From Thermoprotei archaeon (GTDB taxonomy: Archaea > Thermoproteota > Thermoprotei > Thermoproteales > B15-G16), in NCBI GenBank assembly GCA_003649205.1, contig QMRC01000002.1:259482-323481 (forward strand): 64,000 nucleotides of DNA. The letters are read 5' to 3'. This document shows, piece after piece, positions 2,667-49,419 of this stretch (the stretch's first letter is position 1; every line of letters starts with the position of its first letter). Under the pieces are notes generated by a model. It was not told where the DNA came from, did not search any database, and worked only from the letters and a program-made list of their open reading frames with translations. A program made the translations under genes and the position numbers.

Positions 2667-2695
2667 TTAAAAACCGAGAAGTAGCTCTAGAGGAT

Positions 2696-2753
2696 TGACC
2701 GGGGGCTCCCCTGACACGTGAGTGATCACGTGGGATGAGGGGGAGTGCGGTCT
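2696..2753 (+). ncRNA. K-turn hairpin small RNA (atypical H/ACA-like candidate)
   Basis: GACCG..GCTCCC-CTGA-CACGTGA loop TCACGTG-GGAT-GAGG-GGGAGT..CGGTC; TTAAAAA box at 2667; no ANA tail. Confidence 0.5.
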
Positions 2754-2755
2754 CC

Positions 2756-3535
2756 TCACCTCTCTTCCATGCTCAGCAAGTACTCACGTAATCTAGCTAC
2801 ATCACCTCTATACAGCTTGAAGAGTTGATCAGGGTAGTTTAGAATCACGTAGTTAGTATACCTCATCCTAGCTAACACCTTCAGTACCTTGTGGTGATTA
2901 ATCGATACCTTGATACCAGTTTCAACACTAGCCTCCACACCCTCCCTTAGCTTATCACCTAAGTGAATTATGTCTATGTAACCAATGTTCTCTATGAGGG
3001 TCCTCAAATCATCGATACTACATCGTGAATCTCTACCAAGCTCAAAGCATATGGTGAAGAGAGCAGGTACCGTGACTCTACCGATAACTCGACTTACAAT
3101 ATCCCTAACGGAGCATTGACTTGGTCTACAGAGCCAAGAGAGCTTGACACCATATGCAGCTGCTAGCTTGAGTATGGTCCCTAGGTAGGTGTTGATGGTG
3201 TTACTAGGTGTGTCAGACTTCACTAATGTACGTGATGGCTTCATAACTACGTGACTACACCCGATCTCTGAAGCAATCATCATCAACCTCTCAATGGTTG
3301 TGCCTAGGTTCCTGCTAGAGATCTTGGGTGTAGGTACCTTGATTATCTCGATCTTATCCATGAACACCTCCATGGGTTCAGTAATGTCGTAGATTAGTGC
3401 ATCAAGAAGCAACCTCTTCTCCCTAGTTAAGTCCACCTCAACAACATCTACTTGCTCAACTACCTTCTCAACTTCACGAGGTGCTTTCTTGAGTAAGCTG
3501 TAAGGTATTGCAACACCTAGCTTCAAGAGGGACAC
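2756..3535 (-). CDS. Xylose isomerase-like TIM-barrel protein, divergent
   Basis: Family-like layout (IGCSHVV, IIHLGD, MRYTNYVILNY); metal ligands look degenerate. Confidence 0.5.
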   Translation of the reverse strand: MSLLKLGVAIPYSLLKKAPREVEKVVEQVDVVEVDLTREKRLLLDALIYDITEPMEVFMDKIEIIKVPTPKISSRNLGTTIERLMMIASEIGCSHVVMKPSRTLVKSDTPSNTINTYLGTILKLAAAYGVKLSWLCRPSQCSVRDIVSRVIGRVTVPALFTICFELGRDSRCSIDDLRTLIENIGYIDIIHLGDKLREGVEASVETGIKVSINHHKVLKVLARMRYTNYVILNYPDQLFKLYRGDVARLREYLLSMEER

Positions 3536-3537
3536 CT

Positions 3538-3612
3538 ACATGTGGCCACTGGCTCCGCCGCCTCCTCATTCAGCCCCGAGAGAGGGGATGTCGGAGACGG
3601 CTCAGGTCTACC
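3538..3612 (-). ncRNA. H/ACA-like K-turn guide RNA A
   Basis: GCCGTCT-CCGA-CATCCCC loop GGGGCTG-AAT-GAGG-AGGCGGC, then 13-14 nt and ACA; TATA-like box upstream. Confidence 0.65.
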
Positions 3613-3663
3613 TAGGTGAAGCCCCTTGATATACTTAACCTAAGTCTGAGAGGTAGGAGGTGA

Positions 3664-3736
3664 TTATATGCTGAGAAATTGGTGAGGTCGCTTCATCCCA
3701 ACCCAATTGGGGAGTCGGCGACCTAGCCGCCATGAC
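3664..3736 (-). ncRNA. H/ACA pseudouridylation guide RNA B, predicted target 16S U518 (E. coli numbering)
   Basis: GGCGGCT [AGGTCG-CCGA...GAT-GAAG-CGACCT] CACCA, ATA 15 nt after the stem; guides match UGGUG-UC-AGCCGCC. Confidence 0.8.
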
Positions 3737-3784
3737 TAAGTTCGAGTAAGGGGTTCATATACTTACCGTAGGTTGAGTAGAGTA

Positions 3785-3856
3785 GGATATTGCAAGGGGC
3801 CGGGGCTCACCTTCATTGACTCCCAGAAGGGAGCCTCAGGTGAGTGAACCCCACCG
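3785..3856 (-). ncRNA. H/ACA-like K-turn guide RNA C
   Basis: CTCAC-CTGA-GGCTCCC TTCT GGGAGTC-AAT-GAAG-GTGAG, a canonical K-turn; ATA 15 nt after the stem. Confidence 0.7.
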
Positions 3857-3905
3857 AGAATTTCCTCGTGCTCTACTGATCTTAAAACTGTATCTACTTC
3901 TCTAG

Positions 3906-3971
3906 CTATGGCTCATGGGAGGTGCGTGTCATCACCTACCTCAGGTACCGTGAGGTTCTTCATCGCCATAA
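3906..3971 (-). ncRNA. Box C/D sRNA
   Basis: ATGAAGA-acctcacggtac-CTGA-GTGATGA-cacgcacctccc-ATGA with terminal stem TATGGC/GCCATA; first guide complements conserved 23S GUACCGUGAGG. Confidence 0.85.
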
Positions 3972-4008
3972 CTCACAGTGATGCTGGGGTAAATTATTGT
4001 TTCTCAGA

Positions 4009-4059
4009 TCAGAAGAGGCTAGCCTACATCACTTCCTCAGCCCGTATAAGATTCATCAC
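4009..4059 (-). ncRNA. Box C/D sRNA
   Basis: GTGATGA-atcttatacggg-CTGA-GTGATGT-aggctagcctctt-CTGA. Confidence 0.8.
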
Positions 4060-4110
4060 CTCACTCACCTAGGTGTATCAATAGTCTTAAACATAGCGTC
4101 ACTACAGCAT

Positions 4111-4167
4111 TCAGCAGGGGTGCGTTATCTTCATAGGGAATCCGTTAACTCCCGGCGGTCTCATCAC
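4111..4167 (-). ncRNA. Box C/D sRNA
   Basis: GTGATGA-guide-CGGA(degenerate D')-ATGAAGA-taacgcacccctg-CTGA. Confidence 0.7.
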
Positions 4168-4223
4168 TATTAATACGGTTCATACTAGACAGCCTAAATA
4201 CCTGAGCCTAAGTCACTACACAG

Positions 4224-4769
4224 GTGATTAACTTGGTCACCGTATGTGTAGCATCTAGAAATCCAGTGAAAATAAGGGGTACTGAGAGAGCGTTCAGGAA
4301 GATACTTGGTGTAGATGTGGAGGTGATACCTATTGAGGTAAGTACCTCAGTAAGACAACCAATCTCGATAGATCAAGTCATTAAGTGTGCAATTGAGAGA
4401 GCAGAGAGGGCACGTGAAGCACATACATGCGACTTTGCTGTTGGAGTTGAGGCAGGTATATGGATTGTGGAGGTACGAGGGTATGGACAGATACCTATTA
4501 ACACACACGTAGCTGCAGTATTGACTAAGGATGATACGCTATCACTAGGTATAGGGCCTTCATTCCCCATACCCGAGGACATGTACAGTATGATAACTAC
4601 TCACCATAAGGAATTGAGTAAAGTTGTTGAGGAGGTACTCGGTGTACGTGACATAGGAAGAGACATAGGGCTAGTAGGTATCCTTTCAGGAGGTAAAGTG
4701 AAGAGAGAAGACTTAGTCTACTACGCTGTGGCCATGGCATTGCTAGGTATCACGAGTAGGTACTACTGA
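4224..4769 (+). CDS. yjjX: Non-canonical purine NTP phosphatase (DUF84)
   Basis: ASRNPVK, QP, VGVEAG and GLVGILSGGKVKR motifs. Confidence 0.85.
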   Translation: MINLVTVCVASRNPVKIRGTERAFRKILGVDVEVIPIEVSTSVRQPISIDQVIKCAIERAERAREAHTCDFAVGVEAGIWIVEVRGYGQIPINTHVAAVLTKDDTLSLGIGPSFPIPEDMYSMITTHHKELSKVVEEVLGVRDIGRDIGLVGILSGGKVKREDLVYYAVAMALLGITSRYY

Positions 4770-13171: not shown

Positions 13172-13224
13172 GTGATGACTAACTGGGCCGGCCTTGATTG
13201 GTGATGTGTACCCGCCCCCTCTGA
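13172..13224 (+). ncRNA. Box C/D sRNA
   Basis: GTGATGA-ctaactgggccggcc-TTGA-GTGATGT-gtacccgccccct-CTGA. Confidence 0.75.
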
Positions 13225-13263
13225 TGTGTGTTGTGGTTATTTACTTGTCTTCTGTGTTTTCTG

Positions 13264-13313
13264 GTGATGAGGTTTTGTTTGGCAGAGTGGTGAAGAGCGT
13301 TGGGGACCTCTGA
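13264..13313 (+). ncRNA. Box C/D sRNA overlapping the ATPase start
   Basis: GTGATGA-ggttttgtttgg-CAGA-GTGAAGA-gcgttggggacct-CTGA. Confidence 0.75.
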
Positions 13314-24052: not shown

Positions 24053-24434
24053 GTACCTGATAGGTAGTGATGTAGGTAAGGTGATTGCTAAGATCATAGA
24101 GAATCCACAGGTGATCATCATCGTACCACTGACTCAGCTAGCTGAGCTACACTACGTAGTACTGAGGACTCTTGGTGAAGATGTTGCTAGTGAATTCACA
24201 AGTACAGTACTTAGCGAGACAGTAGTCGATGTTGGTGATCCCCAGACATACCTACTAGCTGCTGAGCTAAAGGCTAGGTACTTCCATAACCTAAGCCTAT
24301 CAGAGTGCATCCTAGTTGCTACTGCTAGGAAGTTCTCTGCCTCACTAGTACTACGTAGTGAAGTTATTAATCAGGTAAAGGAGATGGGTAGTGAACTAGG
24401 TATTGAAGTGCTTGGTGTTGAGGACATTAAGTGA
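24015..24434 (+). CDS. PIN domain VapC-like toxin
   Basis: YVLDT..E..LAE..LSLSE; later acidic ligands are divergent; TTG 24015 likely start. Confidence 0.75.
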   Translation: MRKYVLDTVLWVEYLIGSDVGKVIAKIIENPQVIIIVPLTQLAELHYVVLRTLGEDVASEFTSTVLSETVVDVGDPQTYLLAAELKARYFHNLSLSECILVATARKFSASLVLRSEVINQVKEMGSELGIEVLGVEDIK

Positions 24435-24479
24435 TGAGACCTCCTCTCACTGAGAGGTGAGGAGAGGGTAAGGTGCTGA
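24431..24479 (+). ncRNA. Box C/D sRNA whose box C contains the PIN gene stop codon
   Basis: GTGATGA-gacctcctctca-CTGA-GTGAGGA-gagggtaaggtg-CTGA; first guide complements archaeal 16S GAGAGGAGGU. Confidence 0.88.
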
Positions 24480-24529
24480 TCAGCAGCGCAGTGGGTTCTT
24501 CACCTATCTGCCGCTGCTCCCCTCATCAC
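24480..24529 (-). ncRNA. Box C/D sRNA
   Basis: GTGATGA-ggggagcagcgg-CAGA-GTGAAGA-acccactgcgctg-CTGA. Confidence 0.85.
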
Positions 24530-24539
24530 GTGATTTAGT

Positions 24540-24665
24540 CTAGATCTCAGTTCTCTTGACGAATCCACATGCACCACATAGCAGCCAGTACGTTCCTCTG
24601 TACTTGACTAAACTCAGCTTAGCACCACACCTAGGACATTTCCTCTCCTCAACCACAGTAATCAC
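24540..24665 (-). CDS. Small CPxCG zinc-finger protein (41 aa; below the ORF track cutoff)
   Basis: Manual translation MITVVEERKCPRCGAKLSLVKYRGTYWLLCGACGFVKRTEI. Confidence 0.75.
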   Translation of the reverse strand: MITVVEERKCPRCGAKLSLVKYRGTYWLLCGACGFVKRTEI

Positions 24666-24726
24666 CTCGTGATGTTGCTCTAGAGGAGTTAAGTATATTT
24701 CCTCAAACCCACTACGTACTAAGACG

Positions 24727-24776
24727 GTGATGAGCTGGGTTCAAGACAGATTAGTGAAGAACACGCCCTTCTCTGA
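24727..24776 (+). ncRNA. Box C/D sRNA antisense to the GNAT 3' end
   Basis: GTGATGA-gctgggttcaaga-CAGA-GTGAAGA-acacgcccttct-CTGA. Confidence 0.8.
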
Positions 24777-25566: not shown

Positions 25567-25680
25567 CTCAAATCGAGTTGCTTAGTTGGGGTTATTTCTC
25601 AGTGGTCTTGAGATATCCTTGAGCTCGGTGTGTTGGATGGGAGATACCTCATAAACTACCTGTACTACGTTAGTTGGTGA

Positions 25681-25729
25681 GTGATGAGCATTACGGGCTC
25701 TGAGTGGTGACGACTCGGTTCTCGGCTGA
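25681..25729 (+). ncRNA. Box C/D sRNA
   Basis: GTGATGA-gcattacgggct-CTGA-GTGACGA-ctcggttctcgg-CTGA. Confidence 0.88.
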
Positions 25730-25731
25730 CT

Positions 25732-25950
25732 TTAGGTCTTTCTCAGTTCCTTTTCCATAGCTTTTCTCACGACCTCAGATTCGAGGTATATGAACGCTAC
25801 TGCACCGAAGATACAGGCTAGTACTCCAGCTAGTTTCGTTACTGGTTCCAGCTCTATGTACATGCTCATGACGATAGCACCAACACAACCAAGCACTGCG
25901 TATAGTAGTGATCTGATGAGACTGAGACTCGGAGTAGCTGCCATACACAT
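25732..25950 (-). CDS. Small two-TM membrane protein
   Basis: Two hydrophobic helices and a charged tail. Confidence 0.6.
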   Translation of the reverse strand: MCMAATPSLSLIRSLLYAVLGCVGAIVMSMYIELEPVTKLAGVLACIFGAVAFIYLESEVVRKAMEKELRKT

Positions 25951-26004
25951 CCCTCATCTCTGCTTTCCTTCTTTCTGGTTATCTCTGTTAGCAAATGTTC
26001 TTCA

Positions 26005-26053
26005 TCAGTCGATTCCGAGGTCATCATGTATCAGCCGAGTGAGGCTTCATCAC
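26005..26053 (-). ncRNA. Box C/D sRNA
   Basis: GTGATGA-agcctcactcgg-CTGA-ATGATGA-cctcggaatcga-CTGA. Confidence 0.9.
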
Positions 26054-26104
26054 TCTCTACGGAGTACTACTTATCTAGTGATTAATGTCGTTACGTCTTT
26101 GTCT

Positions 26105-26153
26105 GTGATGAGGGAGTATTGAGCTGATTGTTGATGAGGGTGCGAGTTGCTGA
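26105..26153 (+). ncRNA. Box C/D sRNA
   Basis: GTGATGA-gggagtattgag-CTGA-TTGATGA-gggtgcgagttg-CTGA. Confidence 0.9.
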
Positions 26154-26203
26154 TCAGTGAAGCGAGGCTCGGACACCAATTACCCCTGACGTGCACTCAT
26201 CAC
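26154..26203 (-). ncRNA. Box C/D sRNA with degenerate internal boxes
   Basis: GTGATGA and CTGA at the typical 50-nt span; D'/C' not clearly recognisable. Confidence 0.55.
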
Positions 26204-26204
26204 C

Positions 26205-26257
26205 TCAGTTGGGCTAATCCACGATCATTGAGTCACTAAACCCTCGGGATTCATCAC
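26205..26257 (-). ncRNA. Box C/D sRNA
   Basis: GTGATGA-atcccgagggttta-GTGA-ATGATCG-tggattagcccaa-CTGA. Confidence 0.65.
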
Positions 26258-26326
26258 CGGTTACCGTGGTTAGAGACTTATACCTAACTACCGTAGTGTA
26301 GAGGTGAGGGAGAAGACCTTTTTCTC

Positions 26327-26375
26327 ATGATGAGTTTGGGCGAAGCTGATTAGTGACGAAGCGTGCCGATACTGA
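26327..26375 (+). ncRNA. Box C/D sRNA
   Basis: ATGATGA-gtttgggcgaag-CTGA-GTGACGA-agcgtgccgata-CTGA. Confidence 0.88.
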
Positions 26376-26479
26376 TCACCAGTACTCATGTATTACCCCG
26401 GTAATTCTCATCTCTTACCTCGGGTAATCTACTTGACAACCCTATATTAACTATGAGACTTCGGTAATTGGGGTTTCAC

Positions 26480-26614
26480 TTGAGTATATGCAGGTATAGG
26501 ACTCGTAAGTTGTGGTGCTGTTTGGAGTGTGGTTTTAAGTGGTTTAGTGATGGTGATTTCGATAAGTGCCCTAGATGTGGTGCTAGGTGTATTGCTCTGT
26601 TATCCTCTCTGTAG
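26480..26614 (+). CDS. Small zinc-ribbon protein (44 aa; below the ORF track cutoff)
   Basis: Manual translation MSICRYRTRKLWCCLECGFKWFSDGDFDKCPRCGARCIALLSSL. Confidence 0.7.
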   Translation: MSICRYRTRKLWCCLECGFKWFSDGDFDKCPRCGARCIALLSSL

Positions 26615-26622
26615 GTTACTTG

Positions 26623-26677
26623 TCAGCGGTACTCTTTCTCTTCATCGGTTTTCCTCACGAGGGGCGAAATTCGTCAT
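26623..26677 (-). ncRNA. Box C/D sRNA
   Basis: ATGACGA-atttcgcccctc-GTGA-ATGAAGA-gaaagagtaccg-CTGA; first guide complements crenarchaeal 16S AGGGGCGAAAU. Confidence 0.82.
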
Positions 26678-26748
26678 CCGCTTTCGGTACTTGTTGAGGG
26701 TATAGATATTTCTTCCCCACTTCTTGAATGTGTATCTGGTGATTTCAC

Positions 26749-49256: not shown

Positions 49257-49305
49257 TCAGCTTCTCGACTACTCATCAACACTCAGCTGAGGTGCGACTC
49301 ATCAC
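49257..49305 (-). ncRNA. Box C/D sRNA
   Basis: GTGATGA-gtcgcacctcag-CTGA-TTGATGA-gtagtcgagaag-CTGA. Confidence 0.88.
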
Positions 49306-49363
49306 TACCCAGTGCAGACCTTGGAAAAAGGTAAATTTGGTGCCAAATCAACAATATAGATCA

Positions 49364-49419
49364 GTGATGAGTTTGCTTAGCCCCACCTGACGAGCGGTGA
49401 GGAATCCGGCAGGAGCTGA
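49364..49419 (+). ncRNA. Box C/D sRNA, double guide to the 16S 5' region
   Basis: GTGATGA-gtttgcttagccccac-CTGA-GTGAGGA-atccggcaggag-CTGA; guides complement GUGGGGCUAAGC and UCCUGCCGGA. Confidence 0.9.

What the first reader, a model, noticed from the sequence alone, without database searches (positions are those of the whole stretch)
3538..4167. Six-gene tandem array mixing H/ACA-like and C/D guide RNAs
Seen: the apparently empty gap of about 690 bp holds six co-oriented minus-strand units roughly 100-125 bp apart. Three are box C/D sRNAs and three are K-turn hairpins ending in ACA/ATA, each preceded by an AT-rich TATA-like box. Known: archaeal C/D and H/ACA RNPs both use L7Ae K-turns, and their genes are usually dispersed. 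Inference: this is a dedicated guide-RNA locus, sorted by class and built from promoter-plus-guide cassettes.
Basis: partly seen in the sequence, partly recalled or inferred. Interest (0 to 1): 0.82.

Follow-up and report, generated by a model that had tools for sequence, protein, structure and literature searches.

The report
Six guide-RNA genes in a row
A 690-base gap in an uncultured heat-loving archaeon holds three methylation-guide and three pseudouridine-guide-like small RNA genes in tandem, each with its own promoter-like box: real and tidy, but made of known kinds of RNA.

Summary
On the minus strand of window 3541-4200 lie six co-oriented cassettes. Each has an AT-rich TATA-like box followed by a small RNA: three box C/D sRNAs (CD1-CD3), then three K-turn hairpins (D, E, F) ending in AUA, AUA and ACA.

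Evidence of function is comparative. A sister-species contig (L012) keeps the whole array. Differences are 24 of 371 columns in RNA bodies, 3 of 46 in TATA-like boxes and 49 of 230 in spacers.

- **CD3:** both guides match 16S rRNA of all four relatives tested, 26 nt apart.
- **F:** it has homologs in another family of the same order. Both stems have changed there, but the 3' tail and NCA box have not. That tail pairs with a conserved 23S segment.
- **Hairpin geometry:** stem length plus distance to ANA is 24-25 nt. This fits archaeal H/ACA RNAs that lack a lower stem, as in Pyrobaculum and Sulfolobus.
- **D and E:** no convincing target. The genome's own rRNA is not assembled.
- **Expression:** untested.

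The genome has about 160-185 C/D candidates and other sRNA islands, so clustering is not unique to this locus. These are new members of known kinds; the mixed six-gene arrangement is a modest novelty.

The parts
4193..4200 (-). TATA-like box of cassette CD1
   Evidence: AT-rich 8-mer beginning 33 nt before the C box. It falls in the genome-wide AT peak at -31 to -26 upstream of C boxes. Not covered by L012, whose contig ends at CD1.
4111..4167 (-). CD1, box C/D sRNA: C box 4167-4161, D' 4144-4141, C' 4134-4128, D 4114-4111
   Evidence: Pattern hit. 2 of 57 columns differ in L012, one in the D' box and one in the loop. The stretch just after the C box matches 9-10 nt in the T-arm of at least 10 of the genome's own tRNAs and in 23S of relatives, but not in N+5 register with the D' box chosen.
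4085..4093 (-). TATA-like box of cassette CD2, with a T-run 22 nt after the end of CD1
   Evidence: Begins 32 nt before the C box. 1 of 9 columns differs in L012.
4009..4059 (-). CD2, box C/D sRNA: C 4059-4053, D' 4040-4037, C' 4032-4026, D 4012-4009
   Evidence: Canonical boxes with 12- and 13-nt spacers. Sub-threshold Rfam C/D hits of about 21 bits. 4 of 51 columns differ in L012: guide position 1, two loop positions, and one U-to-C change in the D guide. That U-to-C change turns a G-U into G-C against a 10-nt 23S match seen in G002 only.
3990..3998 (-). TATA-like box of cassette CD3
   Evidence: Begins 32 nt before the C box. 0 of 9 columns differ in L012.
3907..3970 (-). CD3, box C/D sRNA with a 6-bp terminal stem: C 3966-3960, D' 3944-3941, C' 3935-3929, D 3916-3913
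   Evidence: - Fold z-score -2.46.
- Rfam sR42 22.7 bits, E 0.005, with the same D' guide region aligned.
- D' guide matches 12 nt (one G-U) of 16S and 11 Watson-Crick nt of 23S in 4 of 4 relatives.
- D guide matches 16S 26 nt upstream with one internal mismatch in 4 of 4 relatives.
- 2 of 64 columns differ in L012.
3880..3887 (-). TATA-like box of cassette D, with a T4 run 20 nt after the end of CD3
   Evidence: 1 of 8 columns differs in L012.
3786..3858 (-). D, H/ACA-like K-turn hairpin: outer stem 3844-3838 with 3812-3806, GA pairs 3837-3836 and 3814-3813, inner hairpin 3835-3818, AUA 3790-3788
   Evidence: - Fold z-score -2.77.
- GA-stem 9 with 15 nt to AUA.
- 1 substitution in L012, G-U to A-U in the inner stem. 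The tail is identical up to AUA, then a 5-nt indel follows.
- Single copy in the genome.
3755..3764 (-). TATA-like box of cassette E
   Evidence: 0 of 10 columns differ in L012. It shares a 20-nt repeat, 80% identical, with the box of F.
3665..3734 (-). E, H/ACA-like K-turn hairpin: outer stem 3723-3717 with 3692-3686, GA pairs 3716-3715 and 3694-3693, AUA 3669-3667
   Evidence: - L012 keeps the 8 nt before the stem and the first 7 nt after it.
- L012 changes an A-C mismatch next to the GA pairs into A-U.
- L012 has ACA where G000 has AUA, at the same position.
- E is the least canonical unit: 3 unpaired nt lie between the GA pairs and the inner stem, and the inner hairpin is -5.4 kcal/mol.
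3629..3638 (-). TATA-like box of cassette F
   Evidence: 1 of 10 columns differs in L012.
3539..3608 (-). F, H/ACA-like K-turn hairpin with a single 3' guide: outer stem 3601-3593 with 3565-3557, GA pairs 3592-3591 and 3567-3566, tail 3556-3544 (invariant 9-nt element 3552-3544), ACA 3543-3541
   Evidence: - Homologs in genus g8 of family f2: G038 26.8 bits, G043 21.7, G022 19.8. They have different stems and the same tail.
- Pairs counted on A6: 90.8% of cells paired against 73.2% in shuffles.
- The tail is complementary to 11 nt of 23S in 4 of 4 relatives.
- ACA ends 5 nt before the GTG of ORF 2756-3535.

Best explanation
The gap is an island of six separate guide-RNA genes of an archaeon of a deep-branching family. 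Its same-order relatives include genomes with intron-bearing 16S genes. The order's name is my inference; no tool named it.

Each cassette has a TATA-like promoter element about 25-30 nt before the RNA's 5' end. The RNA is about 51-73 nt long and its K-turn would be bound by L7Ae.

CD1-CD3 would assemble with Nop5 and fibrillarin and direct 2'-O-methylation. CD3 uses both guides on one 16S region, acting as a dual guide or chaperone.

D, E and F would assemble with Cbf5 and Nop10 as atypical H/ACA RNAs. They have a single K-turn hairpin and no lower stem, but an ANA box kept at the classic distance. F uses only its 3' tail to bind 23S rRNA.

- **Shown here:** the sequence architecture, purifying selection on RNAs and boxes, stem covariation in F, guide complementarity for CD3 and F, and the presence of the protein genes.
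- **Inferred:** transcription from six promoters, RNP assembly, and the modified nucleotides.
For: **Architecture**
- Boxes and spacers of CD1-3.
- K-turn hairpins whose GA-stem length plus distance to ANA is 24, 25 and 24.
- The same offset holds genome-wide. 9 of 26 scan candidates have ACA at 23-26 nt, against 1 of 17 in the reversed-genome control.

**Selection**
- Against L012, differences are 24 of 371 columns in RNA bodies, 3 of 46 in TATA-like boxes and 49 of 230 in spacers. Fisher p for bodies against spacers is 1.3e-7.
- The changes inside stems keep pairing: G-U to A-U in D, A-C to A-U in E, G-C to G-U in F.

**Promoters**
- 185 C/D candidates show an AT fraction of 0.67-0.75 at -31 to -26, against about 0.56 elsewhere.
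- The three C/D cassettes here place their AT-rich boxes exactly there.

**Guides**
- CD3 D' guide: 12 nt (one G-U) to 16S and 11 Watson-Crick nt to 23S.
- CD3 D guide: 16S, 26 nt away from the D' site. Both hold in 4 of 4 relatives.

**F family**
- Model R1 finds full-length homologs in 3 of 7 g8 genomes.
- On A6, 6 of 15 pairs change on both sides. 90.8% of cells pair, against 35-60% when partners are slid.
- 14 of the last 17 tail columns, including the 9-nt element and the CA of the box, are invariant.
- RNAduplex gives -26.6 to -27.3 kcal/mol with the same 23S segment. That site is the best in 16S plus 23S for 2 of 4 tails and second best for the other 2.

**Positive control for the class**
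- Another hairpin of this genome (C13:52107-52148) has a 6+7 bp bipartite match around a U of 16S in 4 of 4 relatives. Shuffled flanks gave 0-5 hits per replicate for the whole set of nine RNAs.

**Proteins**
- Cbf5 with DKCLD, TruB_N and PUA domains.
- Nop10, fibrillarin, Nop5 and two L7Ae-family genes.

**Copy number**
- All units are single copy.
Against: - No expression data exist: no RNA run was listed for this DNA.
- Nothing reaches Rfam gathering scores. The Pyrobaculum H/ACA-like families give only a 14-bit partial hit to D.
- The genome's own rRNA is not assembled. All target tests use rRNA of other families.
- D and E have no convincing bipartite target in those rRNAs, in the genome's 40 predicted tRNAs, or genome-wide.
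- CD1 and CD2 guides have only 9-10-nt or mismatched matches. CD1's best match is out of register with its likeliest D' box.
- In F, the 23S duplex is not followed directly by a U. A target uridine can be proposed only by letting 2 rRNA nt bulge and opening the closing G-C pair.
- Gar1 was not found with Pfam. The same search also missed Sulfolobus among the controls.
- Five of the six units are known from only two closely related species.
- I set the RNA boundaries used after I had seen the alignment.
Confidence: 0.8

Rival explanations
1. The six RNAs are real but are made from one or two long precursors. Transcription would start at the first promoter and be cut up by nucleases, with K-turn-bound proteins protecting the mature pieces. 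The AT-rich boxes would then serve mainly as spacers or terminators.
For: - All six units are co-oriented.
- Clusters of two or three C/D genes are read in the literature as polycistronic, and most archaeal C/D genes were reported to lack their own promoter (PMC7994747, section 9 passages read).
- T3-T4 runs follow CD1, CD2 and CD3 by 16-22 nt and overlap the next AT-rich box.
- F runs straight into ORF 2756-3535 with only 5 nt between ACA and GTG.
Against: - Each unit has an AT-rich box at the distance where the genome's C/D genes, most of them solitary (129 of 154 clusters are singletons), show their AT peak.
- Those boxes are conserved (3 of 46 columns differ) while the rest of the spacers is not (49 of 230).
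- Lui et al. 2018 state that most archaeal C/D sRNAs are independently transcribed (PMC6009581, passage read).
Confidence: 0.2
2. D, E and F are L7Ae-binding K-turn hairpins with another role and do not guide pseudouridylation. Possible roles are rRNA-folding antisense chaperones, or regulation of a 5' leader; F would be the leader of the TIM-barrel ORF.
For: - No canonical target was found for D and E.
- F's rRNA duplex is not followed directly by a U.
- F ends 5 nt before the start codon of a co-oriented ORF that has no AT-rich box of its own.
- In S. islandicus, a Cbf5- and L7Ae-bound hairpin without guide regions (sR666) is described (PMC11077068, passage read).
- The neighbouring hairpin at 2693-2770 has no ANA box and no pocket.
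Against: - ANA or NCA sits at 24-25 nt from the GA pairs in D, E, F and the g8 homologs of F. That is the spacing set by L7Ae and the PUA domain of Cbf5 in H/ACA RNPs.
- The g8 homolog of F in G038 is not followed by a co-oriented ORF and ends in a T-run.
- One hairpin of the same class in this genome has a clean bipartite target around a U.
- Atypical H/ACA RNAs with a single 3' guide are proven guides in S. islandicus (PMC11077068).
Confidence: 0.12
3. The units are chance motif matches, decayed relics, or copies of a mobile MITE-like element that resembles sRNAs.
For: - Rfam gives nothing at gathering score.
- MITE-like elements resembling C/D sRNAs exist in one Pyrobaculum species (PMC6009581, passage read).
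Against: - All units are single copy in the genome.
- The control rate of the C/D pattern is 24 hits in the reversed genome, and three fall here within 260 nt.
- RNA bodies are three times better conserved than spacers.
- F is conserved across families with covarying stems.
Confidence: 0.03

Closest known systems
Archaeal box C/D sRNAs (for CD3, Pyrococcus sR42, Rfam RF01127)
   Same: - C, D', C' and D boxes, and about 12-nt guides.
- Terminal stem in CD3.
- Dual guides aimed at nearby rRNA sites.
- Fibrillarin, Nop5 and L7Ae genes present.
- CD3's D' guide region aligns with that of sR42.
   Different: - Scores are below every Rfam gathering threshold: 22.7 against 38 bits for sR42.
- Two C-to-D' spacers are long, 16 nt in CD1 and 15 nt in CD3.
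- CD3's D box is a one-letter variant of CUGA.
- CD1 and CD2 targets are unresolved.
Atypical H/ACA-like sRNAs of Pyrobaculum (sR203-sR210) and Sulfolobus islandicus (sR109, sR136, sR148, sR563)
   Same: [quoted passage not shown]
- GA-stem within the reported 8-13 range.
- F has only a 3' guide, like sR148.
- They coexist with a few classic-looking H/ACA hairpins in the same genome, for example C7:38832 with a 7-bp lower stem.
   Different: - D, E and F keep an ANA box at the classic distance, whereas the S. islandicus atypical RNAs are described as lacking the ACA motif.
- No sequence-level membership in the Rfam Pyrobaculum families.
- They come from a different family of the order.
- Three of them lie side by side, next to three C/D genes.
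Known clusters of archaeal C/D sRNA genes (two or three genes; Pyrobaculum sR100-sR101-sR21, sR34-sR40)
   Same: Neighbouring guide genes separated by tens of nucleotides, sometimes with their own promoters (PMC6009581 and PMC7994747, passages read).
   Different: - Here there are six co-oriented genes of two RNP classes, each with its own conserved TATA-like box.
- In the papers I read and the three literature searches that returned results, I saw no mixed C/D plus H/ACA array. Supplements were closed and subscription papers are not held.

Membership tests
Archaeal box C/D sRNA | Box C (RUGAUGA-like) near the 5' end and box D (CUGA-like) near the 3' end, able to form a K-turn | tested here: met
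   3 of 3 units. CD3 has one-letter variants of both boxes, flanked by a 6-bp terminal stem.
Archaeal box C/D sRNA | Internal D' and C' boxes with guide spacers of about 12 nt | tested here: met
   D' and C' are present in 3 of 3 units. Spacers are 16/13, 12/13 and 15/12 nt, so 4 of 6 lie within 12-13.
Archaeal box C/D sRNA | Guide complementary to rRNA or tRNA, with the target paired to the fifth nucleotide upstream of D or D' | tested here: inconclusive
   Met for both CD3 guides against rRNA of 4 of 4 relatives. CD1 and CD2 have only partial or out-of-register matches. The genome's own rRNA is not assembled.
Archaeal box C/D sRNA | Match to a curated Rfam family at gathering score | tested here: not met
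   0 matches at gathering score. Best below it: sR42 22.7 of 38 bits, sR12 21.5 of 38. Rfam's archaeal C/D families are built from single genera, so this says little about the kind.
Archaeal box C/D sRNA | Partner proteins fibrillarin, Nop5 and L7Ae encoded | tested here: met
   Fibrillarin at 345.7 bits, next to Nop5 at 245.3 bits on contig C1. Two L7Ae-family genes.
Classic archaeal H/ACA sRNA | K-turn in the upper stem, 8-11 layers above the pocket | tested here: met
   Tandem GA pairs plus a 3-nt bulge. GA-stems are 9 (D), 9-10 (E) and 11 (F). Range taken from PMC4652768, introduction.
Classic archaeal H/ACA sRNA | ACA/ANA box 14-16 nt from the base of the upper stem | tested here: met
   15 nt (D), 16 nt or 15 nt with a tenth A-U layer (E), and 13 nt after an 11-layer stem (F). 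The box is kept in L012, as ACA in E.
Classic archaeal H/ACA sRNA | Lower stem of 5-9 bp closing a pseudouridylation pocket | tested here: not met
   - No conserved lower stem.
- The 6-bp pairing that RNAfold proposes for F loses a pair in L012.
- E has none.
- D has at most 4 G-C pairs.

Hence these are not filed as classic H/ACA RNAs.
Atypical H/ACA-like sRNA (Pyrobaculum and Sulfolobus type) | Single K-turn hairpin without a lower stem, with free 5' and/or 3' flanks | tested here: met
   D, E and F. Predicted 5' leaders are about 11-14, 8-11 and 5-7 nt, judged from TATA spacing (inference).
Atypical H/ACA-like sRNA (Pyrobaculum and Sulfolobus type) | Flank(s) complementary to rRNA or tRNA next to a uridine | tested here: inconclusive
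   - F: 11-nt Watson-Crick match to 23S in 4 of 4 relatives, extended by 4-5 bp across a 2-nt bulge in the g8 homologs. The candidate U lies 15 nt from the NCA box.
- D: only an 8-bp G+C-rich match.
- E: only a 5-bp plus an interrupted match.
Atypical H/ACA-like sRNA (Pyrobaculum and Sulfolobus type) | Cbf5, Nop10, L7Ae (and Gar1) encoded | tested here: met
   Cbf5 with a PUA domain, Nop10 and L7Ae family. Gar1 was not found with PF04410, but that model also missed Sulfolobus acidocaldarius among the controls.
Atypical H/ACA-like sRNA (Pyrobaculum and Sulfolobus type) | Association with Cbf5 and guide-dependent pseudouridine | not testable with these tools
   Needs RIP-seq, pseudouridine mapping or reconstitution.

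The most novel reading that the evidence does not exclude
F-type RNAs may be substrate-completed H/ACA guides.

Their invariant 3' tail lies exactly where a classic H/ACA RNA has the 3' strand of its lower stem, directly before the ACA/NCA box. It is complementary to 23S rRNA. The rRNA itself would then supply the missing lower-stem strand that the PUA domain of Cbf5 normally grips. The RNP would become competent only once it is on its substrate.

On this reading the six-gene array is a lineage-specific guide island. Cassettes of both RNP classes were gathered there and share promoter and terminator elements.
Probability: 0.15. Interest if true: 0.6.

Novelty: new member of a known kind. Interest (0 to 1): 0.4.

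Why it matters
- **New lineage.** Atypical H/ACA-like guides were so far described in Pyrobaculum and Sulfolobus islandicus. This extends them to a third, deep-branching lineage of the same order as Pyrobaculum-like genomes. It also shows an intermediate form: no lower stem, but the ANA box kept at the classic distance.
- **A test case.** F is a compact case of a single-3'-guide H/ACA RNA. Its guide and box are frozen across families while both stems have turned over.
- **Gene arrangement.** The array shows that guide genes of the two RNP classes can be gathered into one intergenic island with individual, conserved promoter boxes. That bears on how archaeal guide genes arise, move and are expressed.
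- **Annotation.** The genome carries roughly 160-185 C/D genes and a dozen H/ACA-type hairpins that standard Rfam scanning misses entirely.

Tried and rejected
**Expression.** The look-up of sequencing runs listed no RNA holder, so nothing can be said about expression. The four DNA runs were laid. X1 may be the source of this DNA. X2 and X4 hold the sister-species form, with the same substitutions as L012. One X2 contig holds a CD3-like stretch (3911-3965) in another context.

**Neighbours aiming at neighbouring rRNA sites.** Best hits of 15 guide segments gave 4, 4, 5 and 0 adjacent pairs in four rRNA sets. Shuffles with mean about 1.3 reached these values in roughly 3-7% of 300 trials. The pairs also differed between sets. 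Rejected.

**Homologs of D and E outside the genus.**
- Model R2 (E) matched 4 of 62 genomes at E up to 1: G000, G001, G031 at 24.4 bits and G051 at 17 bits.
- Model R3 (D) matched 6 of 62. The four outside the genus scored 16-20 bits and are G+C-rich.
- Their alignments do not show a K-turn hairpin with shared flanks convincingly. They are not counted as homologs.

**Weak R1 (F) hits not examined.** Of the 17 of 62 genomes with an R1 match at E up to 1, I looked at alignments for G038, G043, G022, G044 and G052 only. The other ten, in g3 and g6 with E 0.05-0.55, were not examined. G044 lacks the inner hairpin and G052 lacks the tail, so both are doubtful. Both are still among the 7 rows of A6 counted.

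**Other negative or uninformative tests.**
- blastn of the whole gap found only G001 among 40 other genomes.
- The search for related loci with the YjjX-like protein found no relative in genome contigs.
- Synteny: 35 of 40 relatives have a YjjX homolog at 33-42% identity. 4 of 13 loci read have one divergent C/D-like gene just upstream, with other guides and no array.
- The three hairpin cassettes are not recognisable duplicates of each other, apart from a 20-nt promoter repeat shared by E and F.
- A genome-wide search for targets of D, E and F found nothing that stands out.
- A candidate classic site for E, a U in a 23S hairpin loop of the relatives with a 5-bp 5' duplex and an interrupted 3' duplex, is only a weak lead.

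- scan_promoters_terminators was not used because it models bacterial sigma-70 sites.
- Supplements of the papers were closed. Target tables of Pyrobaculum and Sulfolobus guides may bear on CD1, CD2, D and E.
- Bernick et al. 2012 (RNA), the original H/ACA-like paper, is not held. What I say of it comes from PMC4652768 and PMC11077068.
Full report
**Setting**

The window is contig C2:259482-323481 of a 2.07-Mb, 31-contig genome bin, 93.8% complete. No rRNA is assembled in it. Relatives of the same order carry archaeal SSU and LSU rRNA.

The finding lies in the 688-bp gap between two ORFs:
- ORF 2756-3535 on the minus strand, with a weak TIM-barrel hit.
- ORF 4224-4769 on the plus strand, NTPase_I-T/YjjX family, E 4e-41.

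**What is there**

Read on the minus strand, the gap holds three box C/D units:
- CD1, 4167-4111
- CD2, 4059-4009
- CD3, 3970-3907

Each has C, D', C' and D boxes.

Three hairpins follow: D (about 3858-3786), E (about 3734-3665) and F (about 3608-3539). In each, an outer stem is interrupted by tandem GA pairs and a 3-nt bulge, which is a K-turn. A G+C-rich inner hairpin sits above it. The 3' tails carry AUA, AUA and ACA.

Every unit is preceded by an AT-rich 8-10-mer. It begins 32-33 nt before the C box, or 37-43 nt before the hairpin stem.

Rfam finds nothing at gathering score in the whole window. With permissive thresholds, CD3 resembles Pyrococcus sR42 (22.7 bits, E 0.005, same D' guide region). 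CD2 resembles several C/D families at about 21 bits.

**Is it more than chance?**

- A strict C/D pattern gives 185 hits in the genome against 24 in the reversed genome. I dropped one half of contig C3, which looks like an inverted duplicate. Three hits fall here within 260 nt.
- A K-turn-hairpin scan gives 26 candidates. 12 have a stable inner hairpin and 9 have ACA at 23-26 nt from the GA pairs. The control gives 17, 1 and 1.
- D and F are among the candidates. E is not, because its inner hairpin is -5.4 kcal/mol.
- All units are single copy, so they are not a repeat family.

**Comparative evidence**

Only one other species-level genome of the genus is held (G001), and its contig stops inside D. 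A metagenome contig of the same sister species (L012) carries the whole array up to the start of CD1.

In the pairwise alignment, differences fall as follows:

| Region | Differing columns | Share |
|---|---|---|
| Six RNA bodies | 24 of 371 | 6.5% |
| Five covered TATA-like boxes | 3 of 46 | 6.5% |
| Remaining spacer | 49 of 230 | 21% |

Fisher p for bodies against spacer is 1.3e-7. I fixed the boundaries from boxes, stems, ANA positions and TATA spacing, but after seeing the alignment.

Inside the C/D units, the changes sit in the D'-C' loops, in a D' box, at guide position 1, and at one guide position where U becomes C. Inside the hairpins, the stem changes keep pairing and the rest fall in loops or the 5' leader of F.

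E has AUA in one species and ACA in the other, at the same position. In D, the sequences diverge by a 5-nt indel right after AUA. That is what one expects at an RNA's 3' end.

**Promoters**

Across all 185 C/D candidates, the AT fraction rises to 0.67-0.75 at -31 to -26 from the C box, against about 0.56 elsewhere. Most of those candidates are solitary: 129 singletons, 20 pairs, 4 triplets and 1 quadruplet at gaps of 200 nt or less.

The three C/D cassettes here place their boxes in exactly that window. With the usual archaeal distance of about 25-27 nt from TATA to start (established knowledge), the RNAs would begin:
- 2-3 nt before the C boxes.
- About 11-14 nt (D), 8-11 nt (E) and 5-7 nt (F) before the hairpin stems.

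For E, that predicted start coincides with the point where conservation against L012 begins.

**Guides of the C/D RNAs**

The genome's own rRNA is missing, so I used 16S and 23S of four same-order relatives from two other families.

- **CD3:** the D' guide matches 12 nt of 16S (one G-U) and 11 Watson-Crick nt of 23S. The D guide matches 16S 26 nt upstream of the first site, with one internal mismatch. All of this holds in 4 of 4 relatives. Two guides of one RNA aiming at one 16S region is the dual-guide pattern reported for about 45% of Pyrobaculum sRNAs (PMC6009581, passage read).
- **CD2:** the D' guide has a one-mismatch match to 23S in 4 of 4 relatives. The D guide has a 10-nt match in one relative only; that match becomes perfect with the sister species' U-to-C change.
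- **CD1:** the stretch after its C box matches 9 nt of the T-arm of at least ten of the genome's own tRNAs, and 10 nt of 23S. It is not in N+5 register with the likeliest D' box.

CD1 and CD2 therefore stay without firm targets.

**What the hairpins are**

The defining numbers of archaeal H/ACA RNAs are a GA-stem of about 10 layers (8-11, or 8-13 in H/ACA-like forms) and an ACA/ANA box 14-16 nt from the stem (PMC4652768, introduction and the Pyrobaculum section read).

| Hairpin | GA-stem layers | nt to ANA | Sum |
|---|---|---|---|
| D | 9 | 15 | 24 |
| E | 9 or 10 | 16 or 15 | 25 |
| F | 11 | 13 | 24 |

The same sum, 23-26, recurs in the other hairpins of the genome.

None of the three has a conserved lower stem, so they are not classic H/ACA RNAs. 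They match the atypical, lower-stem-less class described in Pyrobaculum and proven functional in Sulfolobus islandicus. There, one member (sR148) works with a single 3' guide (PMC11077068, passages read).

The genome encodes a Cbf5 with DKCLD, TruB_N and PUA domains, plus Nop10 and two L7Ae-family proteins. Gar1 was not found with Pfam, but the same search also missed Sulfolobus among the controls.

As a check that the class works as expected here, another hairpin (C13:52107-52148) has a 6+7-bp bipartite match around a U of 16S in 4 of 4 relatives.

**F is conserved beyond the genus**

A covariance model of F was searched in 62 genomes of the order. It found full-length matches in 3 of 7 genomes of genus g8, in another family.

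Their outer stem and inner hairpin have different sequences, but the K-turn is in place. From the base of the stem to the box, 14 of 17 tail columns are identical, including a 9-nt element (window 3552-3544) and the CA of the ACA/NCA box.

On the model-fitted alignment of 7 rows, two of which are doubtful:
- 90.8% of cells pair, against 73.2% in shuffles (0 of 500 reach it) and 35-60% with slid partners.
- 6 of 15 pairs change on both sides. 32 of 500 shuffles reach that count.

The conserved tail is complementary to an 11-nt stretch of 23S that is identical in all four relatives. In the g8 RNAs, the pairing continues for 4-5 bp beyond a 2-nt rRNA bulge. Energies are -26.6 to -27.3 kcal/mol. 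This is the best site in 16S plus 23S for two of four tails and second best for the other two.

A uridine directly after that extended duplex, 15 nt from the box, is my candidate target. For F itself, this needs the closing G-C pair of its 11-layer stem to open, and it leaves one mismatch against the heterologous rRNA. I hold this site assignment at about even odds.

For D and E I found no convincing homolog outside the genus and no convincing target.

**How unusual is the clustering?**

- The genome is dense in guide genes. The window alone has 19 C/D candidates. A second 1.18-kb gap (25567-26748) holds six of them on alternating strands.
- Clusters of two or three C/D genes are in print (PMC7994747; PMC6009581).
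- What stands out here: all six genes are co-oriented. The C/D triplet is the only co-oriented one of five clusters of three or more. Three of the roughly 13 H/ACA-type hairpins of the genome sit side by side.
- If 13 genes were spread at random over about 2,000 gaps, the expected number of triples in one gap is about 7e-5. This is a rough figure that ignores gap size.
- Mixed neighbourhoods recur. Two other H/ACA-type hairpins lie within 50 nt of a C/D candidate, while only about 4% of the genome lies within 200 nt of one.
- The g8 homologs of F are not in an array. YjjX homologs of 13 relatives have at most one C/D-like gene upstream. The island was therefore assembled in this lineage.

**Verdict**

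The locus is a real island of six guide-RNA genes built from promoter-plus-RNA cassettes. The RNAs are new members of two known kinds, and the mixed, ordered arrangement is a modest novelty.

Still open are transcription, RNP association, the modified nucleotides, and the targets of CD1, CD2, D and E. The lineage's own rRNA and small-RNA sequencing would settle most of it.

Noticed in passing
window 2693-2770 (+): A seventh K-turn hairpin lies between the convergent GNAT gene (ends 2666) and the TIM-barrel ORF (ends 2756). It is conserved in G001 and L012. It has a 10-layer GA-stem, then a 3x1 internal loop and a 5-bp lower helix. It has no ANA box at the usual distance and no pocket. This recalls the guide-less Cbf5/L7Ae-bound hairpin sR666 of S. 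islandicus. An AT-rich box overlaps the GNAT stop codon.
   Followed up: partly
window 25567-26748: A second sRNA island. Six C/D candidates lie on alternating strands in a 1.18-kb gap without a convincing ORF. Sub-threshold Rfam C/D hits reach up to 30.3 bits. Further small groups lie at 13172-13313, 24431-24776 and 49257-49419. The window has 19 C/D candidates in all.
   Followed up: partly
genome contig C13:52107-52148 (-), outside the window: An H/ACA-type hairpin whose two flanks match 6+7 nt around a U in a highly conserved 16S stretch in 4 of 4 relatives. It is the clearest pseudouridine-guide prediction in this genome.
   Followed up: partly
genome contig C3: C/D hits on contig C3 occur in mirror-image pairs; for example, 14278 pairs with 277106. 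The contig looks like an inverted duplication and is probably an assembly artefact. I used only its first 146 kb for counts.
   Followed up: no
window 3533-3543 (-): The ACA box of F ends 5 nt before the GTG start of the co-oriented ORF 2756-3535. That ORF has no AT-rich box of its own, so its mRNA may start at F's promoter and carry F as its leader.
   Followed up: no
L022, L023, L028, L030 (relatives' YjjX loci): In 4 of 13 relatives' loci, a single C/D-like gene lies divergently just upstream of the YjjX homolog, as CD1 does here. Three of them (genus g4) share guides with each other but not with CD1.
   Followed up: partly
window 3911-3965, run X2: One metagenome contig of run X2 holds a CD3-like stretch (5 differences, 2 gaps) flanked by unrelated sequence. 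A relative of CD3 therefore exists in another genomic context or organism.
   Followed up: no
window 3626-3645 and 3754-3773: The promoter regions of E and F share a 20-nt direct repeat, 80% identical, centred on the TATA-like box. It is the only sign of common descent between cassettes.
   Followed up: no
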